Source of the DNA: an uncultured Clostridia bacterium
GTDB lineage: Bacteria; Bacillota; JAAYKD01; CAYOCI01
NCBI GenBank assembly: GCA_964402415.1
Contig: CAYOCI010000001.1
Span: 14,323-78,322 of the forward strand
Reading direction: 5' to 3'
DNA length: 64,000 nucleotides
The stretch's first letter is position 1. Each line of letters starts with the position of its first letter. The position numbers were made by a program, and so were the translations under genes. Below are positions 24,546 to 57,412 of the stretch, one piece after another. Below the pieces are notes generated by a model. That model made no database searches, was not told the DNA's origin, and saw nothing but the letters and a program-made list of their open reading frames with translations.

Positions 24546-24692
24546 ATACGCCCCTACGAACGATGTGGTGATCTCAGCGAGAGCGGTGGGAGTTAGTCAA
24601 CAAAGGGGTCAGACCCCTTTATTAACTAATTCTATGGGGGGATGAATCAAGAAAGCACCGCGGATGCGGTGCTTAGGGGTGGCGGGAGTGGC

Positions 24693-25607
24693 TTAGGGTT
24701 TCAGGATCTCCAGGGGATCGACCGTCTTGTCATCCTTGAGGATCTCGAAGTGCAGGTGGGGGGCGTCGGCGAGCTCATAGCGAGCTGTCTTTCCCACTTT
24801 GCCGATGGTCTCGCCACGCTTGACGGTCTTGCCGATGGTGAGACTAGACGAGGCGAGGTTGGCGTACTTGGTCTTGAGCCCGTTGGCGTGCTCGAGGATG
24901 ACGACCTCGCCCAACTGAGCGTCGTTGTAGGTCCTAGTGACCTTGCCATTGAGCGCAGCCTTGACAGCGGTACCGTCGGCTGCCTCGATATCAATCCCGT
25001 TGTGGTGGCGCCAGTCTTCCATGGTCTTGGAGAGGTGGCGGCCGTGGCGGACGATGATGACGGCGGGGTCAACAGGCCAGATCATCTCCGTGTCGGCGGG
25101 ATCCGGAGTCTGATAGACCACGGCCACTGTCAGGACCTCTTCGATTGGCTCGTCAGGGACAAGTAGAGGGAGCTCTACCCCAGTGGTCAGGGGCGGGGCT
25201 GAGGGGTCCTCATTGCTCGTGGCGGCGGGCTTGTCCCCTGCAGTTGGTGTAGTCGGGGACCCAGCCGGCGCGCTTGTGGGGGCTGTGGTTGGCTTGTCAG
25301 GGGGCGGGGGGGATTTGGTCTGCTCTGGCTCTTTGGTCTTATCTCCTGCTGTCGTTAGGTCCGGCAGATCGGGGTGAGGGACCACGGCCGGGACGGTCGG
25401 AGTACGGTCCGCGATGGTTGGTTGTGCAGGTGGCGGGGTCGATGCCTCACGCTGCCAAGGATACATCGGATTTAGAATGCGCATCCAGGCCACGGTGGAC
25501 AGGACGATAACAATCACGAAGTAGATCGGTAGGACAACCCATTTGTTCTTCAGGAGCTTCGACCAGCGCGACGGGGTCGGCTCCTTCTTGCTGGTTTTCT
25601 CTGACAT
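24693..25607 (-). CDS. M23/LytM-family metallopeptidase at the SpoIIQ position (N-terminal TM anchor, Pro-rich linker)
   Basis: N-terminal TM helix, a proline-rich linker, and a C-terminal M23 domain with HxxxD intact (HHNGIDIEAADGT) and HLHFE. Lies between spoIID and spoIIID as in Clostridia. Confidence 0.6.
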   Translation of the reverse strand: MSEKTSKKEPTPSRWSKLLKNKWVVLPIYFVIVIVLSTVAWMRILNPMYPWQREASTPPPAQPTIADRTPTVPAVVPHPDLPDLTTAGDKTKEPEQTKSPPPPDKPTTAPTSAPAGSPTTPTAGDKPAATSNEDPSAPPLTTGVELPLLVPDEPIEEVLTVAVVYQTPDPADTEMIWPVDPAVIIVRHGRHLSKTMEDWRHHNGIDIEAADGTAVKAALNGKVTRTYNDAQLGEVVILEHANGLKTKYANLASSSLTIGKTVKRGETIGKVGKTARYELADAPHLHFEILKDDKTVDPLEILKP

Positions 25608-25629
25608 GGTTGGGAAACACCTCCTAGCG

Positions 25630-25685
25630 TGAGTCTACCCGTATGCGGCAGGGTTTAAACTCTGCCGCATACGGGTAGACTCACG
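25630..25685. repeat. perfect 23-bp inverted repeat with a 10-nt loop containing GTTTAAAC
   Basis: GTGAGTCTACCCGTATGCGGCAG...CTGCCGCATACGGGTAGACTCAC ending 5 nt upstream of the SD of the M23-peptidase gene. Confidence 0.7.
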
Positions 25686-25804
25686 AGTCACCAAGGCACC
25701 ATGTCACCAAGCCACCAGTAAAGGCTATGAGGGCTGACGGACAGTGAAGCTGAACATCATGCCCCTTCTTGCTGAGCAACGGTGTTTCTGGGCAGTAGGC
25801 AGCT

Positions 25805-26170
25805 TCAGTTGTTTTCTTTGAGAGACACCATTAGTCGGGTTACTAGGCGCACCACATCACCGCAGAGGGAGCGAAGCTCAGTGCAGGGTTCATCGGCGAT
25901 GTATCCAAGATCGCGGCTAAGCAGACAGAAGTAGTCGACCTCATTGGCTGAGCCTCTACTCATGGATAGGAAATGACGGAAGTCTTTCGAGGTGACGCGC
26001 GAGTGTCCTTCGACTATGTTGGCTGCCACGGATGCTGCCGCCCGCCTCATCTGGTTGACGAGACCATATTGTTCCTGAGACGGGAACTGGGCAGTTTCTT
26101 TATACACGGATAGAACCAATTGGTGCGCCTTCTGCCAAGCGAATAGGTCCTCGTAACGACGTTGTGTCAT
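25805..26170 (-). CDS. four-helix-bundle protein (TIGR02436 / Avd-like / so-called 23S rRNA intervening-sequence protein), copy A
   Basis: Family signature YEDLFAWQKAHQLVLSVY...QEQYGLVNQMRRAAASVAANIVEGHSRVTSKDFRHFLSMSRGSANEVDYFCLLSRDLGY. AGAGGAGG SD. Confidence 0.8.
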   Translation of the reverse strand: MTQRRYEDLFAWQKAHQLVLSVYKETAQFPSQEQYGLVNQMRRAAASVAANIVEGHSRVTSKDFRHFLSMSRGSANEVDYFCLLSRDLGYIADEPCTELRSLCGDVVRLVTRLMVSLKENN

Positions 26171-26320
26171 CTGGCTTCCTCCTCTTTTTGTGTACCATCT
26201 AGGAATCGAGACGAGCAGGCGAAACGCCTGCTCGTTCTAACTAATAATCTTCTAAACCTTGGCGGTTCTCCGCCCGTGTCCTACCCACTTGGGGGCTTGG
26301 TGGCGTGGTGCCTTGGTGGC

Positions 26321-55515: not shown

Positions 55516-55728
55516 CTAGATCTTTTCGCTCTTGAGGCCGTATTTCTTCATGAAGCGCTCAACGCGTCCGCCGGTATCGATCAGCTTCTGCTTGCCGGTG
55601 AAGAAAGGATGGCACTTGGAGCAAAGCTCAACACGAAGTTCCTTCTTCGTGGAAAGGGTCTTCCAAGTTTCCCCACATGCGCAGATCACTTGGCACTCCT
55701 GCGTCCTGGGATGAATCTTTTCTTTCAT
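55516..55728 (-). CDS. rpmE: 50S ribosomal protein L31
   Basis: 70-aa product [64 protein letters not shown] carrying the Cys motifs. Confidence 0.85.
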
Positions 55729-55928
55729 CTATCTCACCTCTTTCCGAGTTCATAAAGCCTGTAATAGACATCTGACATTATAGCACTTATTGCATTGCCA
55801 ATGCAAGTGAAAAAGAGTCCCTCGCCCCTCGGCCCTCGCCCCTCGTGGGTTTACGCGTCCCAAGAAGCGACTCGGTCTACCTAACACGTCTCTATGATAC
55901 ATGTTATTATATCCCATGGAGGTGTGGT

Positions 55929-56282
55929 ATGAAAAGAAGATATGCAGAACTTCTGGCTTGGCAGAAGGCGCATAGGTTAACAATCGATATGTATCGAGTC
56001 TCACTATCGTATCCAAAGGATGAGCAGTACGGTTTGGTTAGCCAGATCAGGCGGGCTGCATCCTCGATCCCGGCCAACATTGTTGAGGGGCATTCGCGAT
56101 CTAGCACCAACGAGTTTAAGCATTTCCTGTCCATTGCGAGAGGTTCTGCAGTCGAGTTGGACTACTTTCTTCTGCTTAGCAAAGATCTTGGTTATCTTGA
56201 AGACGATATAGTTGACCAGCTTTGCATGCAATGCGATGATGTGATTCGCCTAATCACTGCCCTGATGGTTTCGCTGAAATAG
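55929..56282 (+). CDS. four-helix-bundle protein (TIGR02436 / Avd-like), copy D; the only clear plus-strand gene
   Basis: Paralogue (MKRRYAELLAWQKAHRLTIDMY...EQYGLVSQIRRAASSIPANIVEGHSRSSTNEFKHFLSIARGSAVELDYFLLLSKDLGY). GGAGGTG SD, an A/T-rich upstream region, and its own intrinsic terminator. Confidence 0.8.
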   Translation: MKRRYAELLAWQKAHRLTIDMYRVSLSYPKDEQYGLVSQIRRAASSIPANIVEGHSRSSTNEFKHFLSIARGSAVELDYFLLLSKDLGYLEDDIVDQLCMQCDDVIRLITALMVSLK

Positions 56283-56284
56283 CT

Positions 56285-56323
56285 GGGGTGCGGTCGTACG
56301 ACCGCACCCCGATTTTCTTTCTT
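56285..56323 (+). terminator. intrinsic terminator of four-helix-bundle gene copy D
   Basis: GGGGTGCGGTCG-TA-CGACCGCACCCC followed by GATTTTCTTTCTT on the plus strand, 3 nt after the stop. Confidence 0.6.
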
Positions 56324-56419
56324 GCACTCATAAACGTACCCACGAGGGGCGGGGGCCGAGGGCGCGGCGAAGCCGTGGACTAGGGACTCTAGACTAGCCT
56401 TTAGGGTCGCGCTGCGACC

Positions 56420-57412
56420 CTAAAGGCTCGGCATCCACTCCTGCCTAAACGCGGGTTTTCTATCCAGTTGATGGATCGCTTCGATGAAGCGGATAGTGCC
56501 GGTCTTGGCGCGCATGACCAGGGAGTGGGTACGAGCGCTGTGGCCGAAGTAACGGACGCCCTTGAGCAGGTCGCCATCGGTGATGCCGGTGGCGGCAAAC
56601 ATGACATCATCGCCGCGGACGAGGTCGGCCATGGTAAGGACTTGGTCGACAGTCTTCAGGCCCATGGCAAGAGCGCGTTTAGCCTCCTGTTCATTCTGCG
56701 GGACCAGGCGCCCTTGCATCTCGCCACCAAGGCACTTGAGAGCAGCGGCGGCCAAGACACCTTCCGGCGCGCCGCCGGTACCCAGCATAATGTCGACGCC
56801 GGTATCGCCGATGGCAGTAGCCACAGCGGCGGCCACGTCACCGTCGGTGATCAGCTTGATACGGGCCCCCGCCTGGCGGGCTTCACGGATGATCCCCTGA
56901 TGGCGCTCCCGATCAAGGATGATCAAGGTGACATCGCTGATCGACTTATGCAGCGCTTGGGCCACTGCTTCCAGGTTCTCACGCACCGAGGCATTGATAT
57001 CGATCTTTCCTGCCGCCCGGGGGCCGACAGCGATCTTCTCCATGTACATGTCCGGAGCGTGTAACATGCAGCCTTGGGGAGCCACGGCTAGGGTGGAGAT
57101 GGCGCCAGGCAGACCCTTGGCGACCAAGTTGGTGCCCTCGAGCGGGTCGACCGCAATATCGACTACAGGGCCGTTCTTTAGACCAACGCGCTCACCGATA
57201 TAGAGCATCGGGGCCTCATCCATCTCCCCTTCGCCGATGACGATGGTCCCGTCGATCTGGATCGAGTCAAAGACCGCACGCATGGCGTCAACGGCTAAGC
57301 CGTCGGCGCCATTCTTGTCGCCGCGACCCATCAAGCGGCCAGAGGCCATCGCCGCAGCTTCAGTTACGCGGACAAATTCTAAGGCGAGTTCACGTTCCAT
57401 GGGCTCGTTCAC
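56420..57412 (-). CDS. glpX: fructose-1,6-bisphosphatase class II
   Basis: GlpX N-terminus [41 protein letters not shown]. Confidence 0.85.

What the first reader, a model, noticed from the sequence alone, without database searches (positions are those of the whole stretch)
24592..56427. A palindromic element family with a GGGGTC-N-GACCCC core placed exactly at operon 3' ends, sometimes embedding the stop codon
Five members share half-sites of the form TTAGGGGTC/GACCCCTAA: 24592-24628 after the M23 peptidase, 30650-30680 after atpD (a perfect 31-bp GTTAAC...GTTAAC dyad), 40468-40498 overlapping the wecB stop, 50405-50426 (CCTAAGGGGCTAGCCCCTTAGG) overlapping the nagA stop, and 56396-56427 overlapping the glpX stop. 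Because the half-site contains CTAA/TTAG, the element supplies a stop codon in either orientation. They lack a following U-tract on the coding strand, so they are not canonical intrinsic terminators. They may be REP-like protein-binding sites or bidirectional processing or termination signals.
Basis: seen in the sequence. Interest (0 to 1): 0.5.

Follow-up and report, generated by a model that had tools for sequence, protein, structure and literature searches.

The report
Transposase-linked palindromic repeats at gene ends
Three of the five reported hairpins are copies of a 31-bp palindromic repeat that, in other genomes, flanks a single-strand-DNA transposase gene (TIRYT, a RAYT relative), so it is a known kind of REP-like mobile repeat; the other two are ordinary one-off gene-end hairpins.

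Summary
Only three of the five sites form a family: 24596-24626, 30651-30681 and 40468-40498. All read GTTAAC-W3-GGGGTC-W-GACCCC-W3-GTTAAC (3 matches, 0 expected). The sites at 50402-50429 and 56396-56428 are unique hairpins. They belong to a general habit of this genome, where 6 of 19 perfect hairpins contain a stop codon.

The core GGGGTC-W-GACCCC, usually with AAC/GTT three bases outside, recurs as multi-copy dyads in many phyla. In about ten independent loci, including the Rhodospirillum rubrum ATCC 11170 plasmid, it flanks a Y1/HUH transposase gene with a C-terminal HTH. These proteins match published TIRYTs (Group 1 RAYT, TnpA-Y1 subclass 2.1) far better than classical RAYTs. Published TIRYT flanking repeats share GGGGWSAS, which this core fits.

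The window copies are therefore solo TIRYT-type repeats, REP-like in behaviour but lacking the GTAG tag. No transposase gene lies in the window.

Across 176 copies they favour convergent and tandem gene ends (58/64/11 against 22/88/23 expected). They often abut the stop codon in a fixed register.

Two window copies lie just past canonical terminators, so they are passengers, not the terminators.

Verdict: new member of a known kind, moderate interest.

The parts
24596..24626 (.). Palindromic repeat copy 1: GTCAAC-AAA-GGGGTC-A-GACCCC-TTT-ATTAAC. It lies after the M23 peptidase gene and its terminator, in the gap before the SpoIIID gene.
   Evidence: RNA fold of the - strand is -22.7 kcal/mol.
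30651..30681 (.). Palindromic repeat copy 2: a perfect 31-bp dyad, GTTAAC-TTA-GGGGTC-T-GACCCC-TAA-GTTAAC, which is 33 bp if the flanking T/A pair is counted. It starts directly after the T-tract of the V-ATPase operon terminator.
   Evidence: Fold energy is -24.4 kcal/mol. The Logan contig L119 ends inside this copy.
40468..40498 (.). Palindromic repeat copy 3: GTTAAC-AAT-GGGGTC-T-GACCCC-TTT-GTTAAC. Its last base is shared with the TAG stop (40500-40498, - strand) of the UDP-GlcNAc 2-epimerase gene.
   Evidence: Fold energy is -18.2 kcal/mol.
24653..24674 (-). Context: canonical intrinsic terminator of the M23 peptidase gene (AAGCACCGC-atcc-GCGGTGCTT followed by TCTTGATT). It lies between the stop codon and palindrome copy 1.
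30685..30717 (-). Context: canonical intrinsic terminator of the V-type ATPase operon (15-bp stem followed by TTTTT). It lies between the subunit D stop codon and palindrome copy 2.
24535..24557 (-). Context: a GTAG-tagged REP (GTAGGGGCGTATGGCATACGCCC), 38 bp from copy 1. It belongs to a different repeat family.
30594..30618 (-). Context: a GTAG-tagged REP (GTAGGGGCGCCGCCATGCAGCGCCC), 32 bp from copy 2. It belongs to a different repeat family.
40442..40464 (-). Context: a degenerate copy of the GTAG REP (GTGGGTGCAGCATGGCTGCGCCC), 3 nt from copy 3.
   Evidence: read directly from the sequence.
50402..50429 (-). Not a family member: a unique 28-bp perfect hairpin (core GGGGCTAGCCCC) that contains the TAA stop of the amidohydrolase (nagA-like) gene.
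56396..56428 (-). Not a family member: a unique hairpin with a 15-bp stem (core GGGTCGC-gct-GCGACCC) that contains the TAG stop of glpX.

Best explanation
The three GTTAAC-W3-GGGGTC-W-GACCCC-W3-GTTAAC dyads are solo copies of a short, non-coding, self-complementary repeat. This repeat is the cognate sequence of a TIRYT. TIRYT is also called Group 1 RAYT or TnpA-Y1 subclass 2.1. It is an HUH/tyrosine single-strand-DNA transposase with a C-terminal helix-turn-helix.

Shown: in other genomes the same core, and in one actinobacterial lineage almost the same 31-mer, sits on both sides of the single-copy transposase gene. It is also dispersed in many copies, singly or in tandem clusters, mostly at gene 3' ends.

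Inferred, by analogy with IS200/IS605 TnpA and E. coli TnpA-REP: the repeat folds into a hairpin when DNA is single-stranded. The transposase recognises the GGGGTC-W-GACCCC tip and its foot, cuts and rejoins the strand, and so spreads copies.

Inferred: copies persist where they do least harm, just past stop codons and terminators. Where transcribed, as at copy 3, they add a stable 3' stem-loop to the mRNA. Copies 1 and 2 lie beyond canonical terminators and are probably passengers.
For: 1. Repeat status in the window.
- 3 matches against 0 expected.

2. The same core with AAC/GTT arms recurs widely.
- More than 118 loci of many phyla hold it, with several copies per genome and lineage-specific but complementary outer arms.
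- Over 171 copies the dyad is 85-95% Watson-Crick at positions 9-15 from the centre, with covariation at positions 13-15.

3. Y1_Tnp genes (PF01797, above the Pfam cut-off) are flanked by the core.
- L075: both sides.
- L128 and L149: both sides, with arms GGTTAACAGA..TCTGTTAACC. These copies match the window copies at 88-91% over 33-35 nt in blastn.
- L131 and L143: both sides, with the variant GGGGTCTGGCCCC.
- L132-137: doublets on both sides.
- L138, L139 and L142.
- R. rubrum ATCC 11170 plasmid: 10 nt after the stop and 43 nt before the start.
-.

4. These proteins are TIRYTs, not classical RAYTs.
- They hit the TIRYTs of Di Nocera et al. 2013 at E 1e-13 to 1e-38, and classical RAYTs only at 1e-3 to 1e-14.
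- They carry NH[YH]H and Y...NP motifs and an HTH tail.

5. The literature describes this kind of element.
- TIRs flanking TIRYT genes share GGGGWSAS, some are self-complementary, and they form moderately abundant families arranged singly, in dimers or in clusters (PMC3733652).
- Subclass 2.1 features are tabulated in PMC6006769.
- Group 1 occurs in 21 bacterial classes, including Clostridia (PMC5581495).
- GGGGTCAG fits GGGGWSAS.

6. Placement of 176 copies.
- Convergent 58, tandem 64, divergent 11, against 22/88/23 expected from all gene pairs; p = 3e-16.

7. Signs of a mobile or fast-evolving repeat.
- A relative with 90% identical V-ATPase B has only a plain terminator at the corresponding gene end.
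- Short assembly contigs break inside the palindrome.
- A related Clostridia MAG carries two copies.
Against: - No Y1 transposase gene lies in the 64-kb window, and the rest of the source genome could not be searched. A cognate enzyme in this organism is therefore unproven.
- There are only three copies here.
- No clean filled-versus-empty orthologous site was obtained. The relative's locus is rearranged downstream.
- No biochemical work on any TIRYT was found in the papers read here, so mobilisation is inferred from association.
- Quentin et al. 2018 reported no REP-like sequences next to subclass 2.1 genes.
- Some homologues carry non-palindromic TIRs: GGGGTCAGGCCT in Sporomusa and GGGGTCGTGTC arrays in L140.
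- The AAC-N3 arm is absent in R. rubrum. Only the core, not the whole 31-mer, is tied to the enzyme.
- The genome scan required the core and AAC/GTT, so how universal the arm is remains partly circular.
Confidence: 0.78

Rival explanations
1. The palindromes are independently evolved gene-end RNA hairpins, either U-tract-less or bidirectional terminators or 3' stabilisers. They look alike only because such hairpins converge on G-rich stems.
For: - They lie at gene 3' ends and fold stably, at -18 to -24 kcal/mol.
- This genome has many unique hairpins at stop codons.
- In R. rubrum and one Pseudomonadales MAG the dyad is flanked by A- and T-tracts, like a bidirectional terminator.
Against: - The three copies share 27-31 of 31 positions, against 0 expected.
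- Copies 1 and 2 lie after complete canonical terminators.
- The same core flanks transposase genes in about ten independent loci.
- Copies occur in tandem arrays and in divergent gaps.
- There is no U-tract in the position matrix built from 171 copies.
Confidence: 0.07
2. They are double-strand operator sites for a dimeric DNA-binding protein. One candidate is the HTH domain of the TIRYT acting as a regulator or nucleoid protein. On this view they have no mobility today.
For: - The dyad is perfect, with a single central base pair.
- The half-site GTTAAC-N3-GGGGTC is conserved.
- The TIRYT proteins carry an HTH tail.
- The TIRYT gene keeps a fixed syntenic position, p450-TIRYT-sigma70, in several species. 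That suggests a domesticated host gene.
Against: - The sites avoid promoter-containing divergent gaps (11 against 23-41 expected).
- The outer arms covary rather than being conserved, which points to selection for pairing.
- Positions 7-8 from the centre are often mismatched.
- Tandem arrays with a 42-bp period look like REP/BIME clusters.
Confidence: 0.08
3. They are classical GTAG-type REP/REPIN elements served by a Group 2/3 RAYT.
For: - The window does contain a true GTAG-REP family with at least 11 copies.
- One of these lies 3-38 bp from each palindrome.
Against: - The palindromes have no GT[AG]G foot.
- Their sequence is unrelated to the GTAG family.
- The transposases found next to them elsewhere match TIRYTs, not RAYTs.
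Confidence: 0.03
4. They are miniature derivatives of a DDE transposon whose inverted repeats start with GGGGTCTGAC (as recalled for Tn3-family ends), collapsed to two overlapping termini.
For: The first ten bases, GGGGTCTGAC, resemble a Tn3-type terminal repeat. This comparison is from memory and was not tested here.
Against: - There are no target-site duplications.
- The conserved AAC/GTT would lie outside such an element.
- No DDE transposase is associated in any locus, whereas Y1 transposases are.
Confidence: 0.02

Closest known systems
TIR repeats of 'TIRtrons', served by TIRYT transposases (Di Nocera, De Gregorio and Rocco 2013, PMC3733652). The enzyme equals Group 1 RAYT (Bertels et al. 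2017) and TnpA-Y1 subclass 2.1 (Quentin et al. 2018).
   Same: - The core fits the published GGGGWSAS motif.
- Copies flank a roughly 230-300 aa Y1/HUH transposase with an HTH tail.
- Some published TIRs are self-complementary.
- Families are moderately abundant and occur singly, in dimers or in clusters.
- Distribution across phyla is wide and patchy.
   Different: - Here the copies are solo, with no transposase in the window.
- The host is a spore-forming Bacillota MAG.
- The fully palindromic 31-bp form with AAC-N3 arms, its spread in Gaiellales, Acidimicrobiia, Pseudomonadales MAGs and others, and its fixed register with stop codons were not found described in the papers read here.
Classical REP/REPIN elements with Group 2/3 RAYTs (E. 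coli, Pseudomonas, Stenotrophomonas).
   Same: - They are short extragenic palindromes.
- They sit at convergent and tandem gene ends.
- They flank a single-copy, vertically inherited Y1 transposase gene.
- They form clusters.
- They sometimes provide or overlap stop codons (PMC3733652).
   Different: - The palindromes here have no GT[AG]G tag.
- They form a perfect dyad around one central base, not an imperfect hairpin with a foot.
- The transposase subclass is different.
Subterminal hairpins of IS200/IS605 elements.
   Same: - Both are hairpins recognised, or presumed to be recognised, by an HUH/Y1 enzyme on single-stranded DNA.
- Neither leaves target duplications.
   Different: - IS200/IS605 hairpins sit at the ends of a multi-copy element that carries its own transposase.
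- Here the enzyme gene is single-copy and the hairpins disperse alone.
Intrinsic (Rho-independent) terminators.
   Same: Both are G+C-rich stem-loops placed just after genes.
   Different: - The palindromes have no U-tract.
- Their sequence is repeated rather than unique.
- Two of the three copies lie after a complete terminator.

Membership tests
TIRYT-associated TIR repeats (TIRtron type) | The repeat carries the GGGGWSAS motif. | tested here: met
   All three window copies contain GGGGTCAG on one strand. The motif is taken from PMC3733652.
TIRYT-associated TIR repeats (TIRtron type) | Copies of the repeat flank a TIRYT gene on both sides. | tested here: met
   Met in other genomes: L075, L128/L149, L131, L132-137, L143 and the R. 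rubrum plasmid. It could not be tested for the window's own genome. No Y1 gene lies in the window.
TIRYT-associated TIR repeats (TIRtron type) | The associated protein is a TIRYT / subclass 2.1 enzyme: an HuH motif of NH[YF]H type, a Y...NP motif, about 240 aa, and a C-terminal HTH. It should be closer to TIRYTs than to RAYTs. | tested here: met
   - Pfam Y1_Tnp scores 42.5 and 30.1 bits against a cut-off of 23, with sub-threshold HTH_23/HTH_38 hits.
- Motifs NHYH/NHHH and YLPMNP/YVDLNP are present.
- blastp to published TIRYTs gives 1e-13 to 1e-38, against 1e-3 to 1e-14 for RAYTs.
- NCBIfam REP_Tyr_transpos scores 58-82 bits against a cut-off of 80.
TIRYT-associated TIR repeats (TIRtron type) | The repeat is dispersed in multiple copies in the same genome. 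| tested here: met
   - 3 copies in 64 kb of the window.
- 9 copies in 15 kb of L149.
- 6 copies in 50 kb of the R. rubrum plasmid.
- Several loci per MAG.
TIRYT-associated TIR repeats (TIRtron type) | The transposase binds, cleaves or mobilises the repeat. | not testable with these tools
   This needs biochemistry or population sequencing. No experimental report was found in the papers read.
Classical REP (GTAG super-family) / REPIN-RAYT | An unpaired GT[AG]G tetranucleotide at the foot of the hairpin. | tested here: not met
   The dyads start with GTTAAC or GTCAAC and have no GTAG or GTGG foot. The separate family at 24535, 30594 and elsewhere does have one.
Classical REP (GTAG super-family) / REPIN-RAYT | The cognate enzyme is a Group 2/3 RAYT (about 150-165 aa, DH[LF]H motif). 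| tested here: not met
   The flanked proteins are 228-298 aa with an NH[YH]H motif, and they resemble RAYTs only weakly.
Intrinsic terminator | A G+C-rich hairpin followed by a U-tract on the transcribed strand. | tested here: not met
   - The hairpin is present.
- No T-run follows it on the - strand.
- The only terminator-like call is for copy 3 on the + strand, where no gene precedes it.
Curated RNA families (Rfam 15) | A match to any covariance model. | tested here: not met
   There were no matches at gathering score in the window. Only chance-level miRNA-like hits appeared on eight copy-rich loci.

The most novel reading that the evidence does not exclude
The repeat is a portable 'gene-end module'. 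On this reading the TIRYT inserts the 31-bp dyad in register with stop codons, or selection retains only such insertions. STOP-NNN-AAC-NNN-GGGGTC, with no gap between the stop and the dyad, occurs in 23 distinct loci with TGA, TAA and TAG. A further 20 or so stops lie inside the arm or at the central TGA. The element would then set or replace the stop codon and add a U-tract-less 3' stem-loop. That would make it a domesticated, cross-phylum device for defining mRNA and protein 3' ends rather than a merely tolerated selfish repeat.
Probability: 0.15. Interest if true: 0.7.

Novelty: new member of a known kind. Interest (0 to 1): 0.4.

Why it matters
- It separates a real repeat family from look-alike gene-end hairpins.
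- It assigns that family to the least studied branch of the RAYT world. TIRYT / Group 1 enzymes have no reported biochemistry in the papers read here. One survey found no REP-like partners for them.
- One 13-nt hairpin tip marks this enzyme's partner sequence from Bacillota to Actinomycetota and Pseudomonadota. That gives a concrete substrate for testing TIRYT activity.
- The core also gives a simple search key for annotating these repeats in MAGs, where they break assemblies.
- The fixed register with stop codons is a testable hint about insertion-site choice or selection.

Tried and rejected
- Rfam at gathering score on the window, and at E-value threshold on eight copy-rich loci: nothing relevant.
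- Full-text search for the core sequence in papers: no hits.
- Viral contig scan with the core pattern: 0 hits, so there is no sign of phage carriage.
- Exact look-up of the window's V-ATPase B protein: not on record. The subunit D look-up gave only a 1.5-kb contig. The source genome therefore could not be retrieved and searched for a transposase.
- First gene caller, a codon log-odds model: it drifted onto antisense shadow ORFs in high-GC MAGs (diagnosed). It was replaced by a GC3-based caller. Counts should be ignored.
- Ideas considered from memory and dropped on the anatomy:
  - Integron attC sites. AAC...GTT is present, but the element is too short and the R-box consensus does not fit.
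  - Bacterial SECIS. The loop is GGUC-like, but the copies follow all three stop codons and sit next to non-selenoprotein genes.
  - parS.
  - Tn3-type terminal repeats.
  - DNA uptake sequences.
- Alignment of 320-bp flanks of the three copies: only the dyad is shared. Copies 1 and 2 also share the neighbouring GTAG REP.
- phmmer of the L075 transposase against PDB sequences: no hit at E <= 0.01.

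
Full report
**1. What is in the window**

The five hairpins exist at the stated places. They do not form one family.

Three share a 31-bp dyad, GTTAAC-W3-GGGGTC-W-GACCCC-W3-GTTAAC:
- 24596-24626, with two mismatches in the outer hexamers.
- 30651-30681, perfect.
- 40468-40498, with one unpaired position.

The pattern gives 3 matches against 0 expected in dinucleotide shuffles. The bare core gives 3 exact matches against 0.22 expected for matches with up to one mismatch.

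The hairpins at 50402-50429 (core GGGGCTAGCCCC) and 56396-56428 (core GGGTCGC-gct-GCGACCC) are unique sequences.

All called genes in the window are on the - strand. The neighbours are an M23 peptidase, SpoIIID, V-type ATPase subunits, UDP-GlcNAc 2-epimerase, an amidohydrolase and GlpX. The host is a spore-forming Bacillota organism of about 58% G+C, known only as a MAG.

Copies 1 and 2 lie directly after complete intrinsic terminators: 24674-24653, and 30717-30685 followed by TTTTT. Copy 3 touches the TAG of the epimerase gene by one base.

Of 19 perfect hairpins in the window (stem of 10 or more), six contain a gene's stop codon and five more begin within 13 nt after one. Sites 4 and 5 belong to this general, non-repeated class.

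**2. The same core elsewhere**

The taxa include:
- Gaiellales, Thermoleophilia, Ilumatobacteraceae and other Actinomycetota.
- Several Pseudomonadales MAGs.
- A Clostridia MAG.
- Planctomycetota, Myxococcota, Elusimicrobia and others.

Most of these genomes carry several copies. Each lineage has its own outer arms, which stay complementary, for example gcgcAAC..GTTgcgc, ctgaAAC..GTTtcag, actagtAAC..GTTactagt and ggttAAC..GTTaacc. A metagenome scan added an ACTTAAC..GTTAAGT type. Viral contigs gave nothing.

Over 171 copies found by the core alone within these loci:
- AAC and GTT are present in 84-92% of copies.
- Pairing is 85-95% Watson-Crick at positions 9-15 from the centre, with covariation at positions 13-15.
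- Pairing drops to 52-60% at positions 7-8.
- Pairing fades beyond position 15.

The unit is therefore a 31-bp dyad, as in the window.

The Clostridia MAG (L035, L080) shares other species-specific repeats with the window. It carries a copy identical to window copy 2 apart from the central base.

A relative with 90% identical V-ATPase B has only a plain terminator at the corresponding gene end.

**3. Link to a transposase**

In L075 and L128 two copies 750-930 bp apart enclose an ORF of 228 or 298 aa. Both ORFs pass the Pfam threshold for Y1_Tnp (IS200-like), and the L075 protein also has a weak C-terminal HTH. The two proteins are 29% identical.

Public sources name homologues of the L128 protein 'REP element-mobilizing transposase RayT'. 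Many of these homologues sit on contigs of about 950 bp, which fits genes bracketed by repeats.

I fetched the contigs of nine homologues. Every one has GGGGTC-type repeats next to the gene:
- L131 and L143: the same dyad, as the variant GGGGTCTGGCCCC.
- L139 and L142: the same dyad, with an exact core.
- L132-137 and L138: inverted doublets of the dyad.
- L149: 9 copies in 15 kb. Their arms, GGTTAACAGA..TCTGTTAACC, match the window copies at 88-91% over 33-35 nt in blastn.
- L140/141: arrays of GGGGTCGTGTCTTGC.
-.

In curated records:
- The transposase gene on the Rhodospirillum rubrum ATCC 11170 plasmid has TTAAAAGGGGTCAGACCCC 43 nt before its start and GGGGTCTGACCCCTTTTAA 10 nt after its stop. 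Four more copies lie nearby.
- A Sporomusa termitida plasmid homologue has GGGGTCAGGCCT inverted repeats.
-.

The gene keeps the position p450-transposase-sigma70 in species that are only 68% identical. That fits a vertically kept single-copy gene.

**4. What family this is**

Di Nocera et al. 2013 described RAYT-like genes flanked not by GTAG REPs but by 'TIRs'. Many of those TIRs share GGGGWSAS. Some are self-complementary, and some form moderately abundant dispersed families. The authors named the enzymes TIRYTs. GGGGTCAG fits that motif.

Quentin et al. 2018 equate most TIRYTs with TnpA-Y1 subclass 2.1, which is Bertels' Group 1. Its features are about 238 aa, an NH[YF]H motif, a Y..LNP motif and a C-terminal HTH. 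They note the GGGG[AT][CG]A[CG] repeats. Bertels et al. 2017 found Group 1 in 21 bacterial classes, including Clostridia. It is occasionally on plasmids, with flanking 16-mers of about 12 copies.

I rebuilt the published TIRYT and RAYT sequences from the paper's supplement and compared them by blastp. All transposases found next to the dyad hit TIRYTs at 1e-13 to 1e-38, and classical RAYTs only at 1e-3 to 1e-14. L075's best match is S. maltophilia ORF 1152, whose repeats are described as self-complementary. NCBIfam's REP-associated tyrosine transposase model is the only hit, mostly just under its cut-off.

The window has no Y1 gene.

**5. Placement**

My first gene caller drifted onto antisense ORFs in high-GC MAGs, so I replaced it with a GC3-based caller. 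With that caller, 176 copies fall as:
- convergent 58
- tandem 64
- divergent 11
- inside genes 4
- overlapping a 3' end 6
- overlapping a called 5' end 1
- at contig edges 32

All gene pairs in the same loci predict 22/88/23 (p = 3e-16). Intergenic length predicts 15/77/41.

Stop codons facing the dyad cluster at fixed distances from its centre:
- 18 nt (23 loci; STOP-NNN-AAC, so there is no gap to the 31-bp unit).
- 20 nt (15 loci in the listing, 14 in the tally).
- 13 nt (9 loci; the TAA of TAAC).
- 0 nt (6 loci; the central TGA, including the L075 transposase itself).

The upstream flanks are all different, and all three stop codons occur.

REPs lying within 20 bp of stops, sometimes providing the stop, and occasional in-frame intragenic REPs are already described for GTAG and CGTC REPs.

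**6. Mechanism**

Shown: the sequence family, its association with TIRYT genes, its dispersal and clustering, and its bias to gene 3' ends.

Inferred by analogy with IS200/IS605 TnpA and E. coli TnpA-REP (as summarised in PMC6006769): the dyad folds in single-stranded DNA, and the enzyme recognises the conserved tip and foot and cuts and joins the strand. Copies survive best just past gene ends.

In the window, copies 1 and 2 lie beyond terminators and are probably silent passengers. Copy 3 would form a -18 kcal/mol stem-loop at the very end of the epimerase message. It might stabilise that message or disturb termination of translation. Neither effect was tested.

**7. Verdict**

The REP-like interpretation is partly supported. 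The element is a new member of a known but little-studied kind. The most unusual open point is the fixed register with stop codons.

Noticed in passing
window + strand: 48194-48218, 49421-49445, 52428-52452. Window - strand: 52981-53005, 49540-49564, 35996-36019, 30594-30618, 24535-24557, 21820-21844, 21685-21707, 20008-20031. Degenerate copies: 19915-19940 and 40442-40464.: A second and more abundant repeat family has classical REP architecture, a GTAG tag followed by a hairpin. The consensus is GTAGGGGCGCCGCCATGCAGCGCCCGC, with a variant GTAGGGGCGTATGGCATACGCCC. Flanks are conserved over roughly 70-90 bp. There are at least 11 copies in 64 kb, and one lies 3-38 bp from each GTTAAC palindrome.
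   Followed up: partly
window 49421-49564, inside the Sua5/TsaC-like gene 48903-50255 (-). Window 52428-52452, inside the PrmC-like ORF 51777-53111 (-).: GTAG REPs lie in frame inside genes. An inverted pair sits in the linker between the Sua5 N- and C-terminal domains, at about aa 225-280, and encodes ...CRGTAMQRPPGRGP...NRGRRMAAPLQ.... A single copy sits between the PrmC_N and methyltransferase domains. This resembles published intragenic REP/RPE insertions.
   Followed up: partly
window 22827-22854, 44179-44208, 45077-45105, 48898-48927, 50402-50429, 56396-56428: Six unique perfect hairpins (stems of 13-15 bp) each contain the stop codon of a - strand gene. Five more begin within 13 nt after a stop. 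Stop-embedding hairpins, most of them without a U-tract, look like the usual gene-end form in this genome.
   Followed up: partly
window 24290-24500 and 17889-17923; L035 2458-2490 and 4415-4450: Arrays of GTCCACA(G/A)/ACCACAG-type short repeats lie upstream of the SpoIIID gene. A 33-36 nt stretch is 97% identical to sequence in the Clostridia MAG CAZINL01. This marks that MAG as a relative and marks the repeats as lineage-specific.
   Followed up: no
window 25628-25685: A 58-bp near-perfect palindrome (97%) is centred on GTTTAAAC. It lies between the start of the M23 peptidase gene and the end of a '23S rRNA-intervening sequence protein' gene at 25805-26170.
   Followed up: no
window 50370-50403: A tandem heptamer repeat, (TTAATTC)n as read on the + strand, directly abuts the nagA-like gene-end hairpin.
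   Followed up: no
window 4000-16000: This block has 47-52% G+C, against 56-63% elsewhere. It may be a horizontally acquired gene cluster.
   Followed up: no
window 16000-64000: GC skew is positive on the + strand (up to +0.17), although every called gene is on the - strand. The coding strand is therefore C-rich, which is unusual for Bacillota if these genes are on the leading strand.
   Followed up: no
L087 7848-7934; L149 13437-13563; L140 2280-2480 and 3400-3640: Composite forms of the TIRYT-type repeat occur. L087 has a symmetric triple with core1-core2-core1'. L149 has four tandem copies with a 42-bp period that fill a convergent gap. L140 has arrays of GATGGTGGGGTCGTGTCTTGC on both sides of a more distant TIRYT.
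   Followed up: partly
L119 (ends at 1466 inside the dyad); L150 (both ends inside dyads); the many 950-1200 bp contigs: Short-read assemblies break inside these palindromes. TIRYT genes therefore often sit alone on contigs of about 1 kb. This is a practical annotation hazard for MAGs.
   Followed up: no
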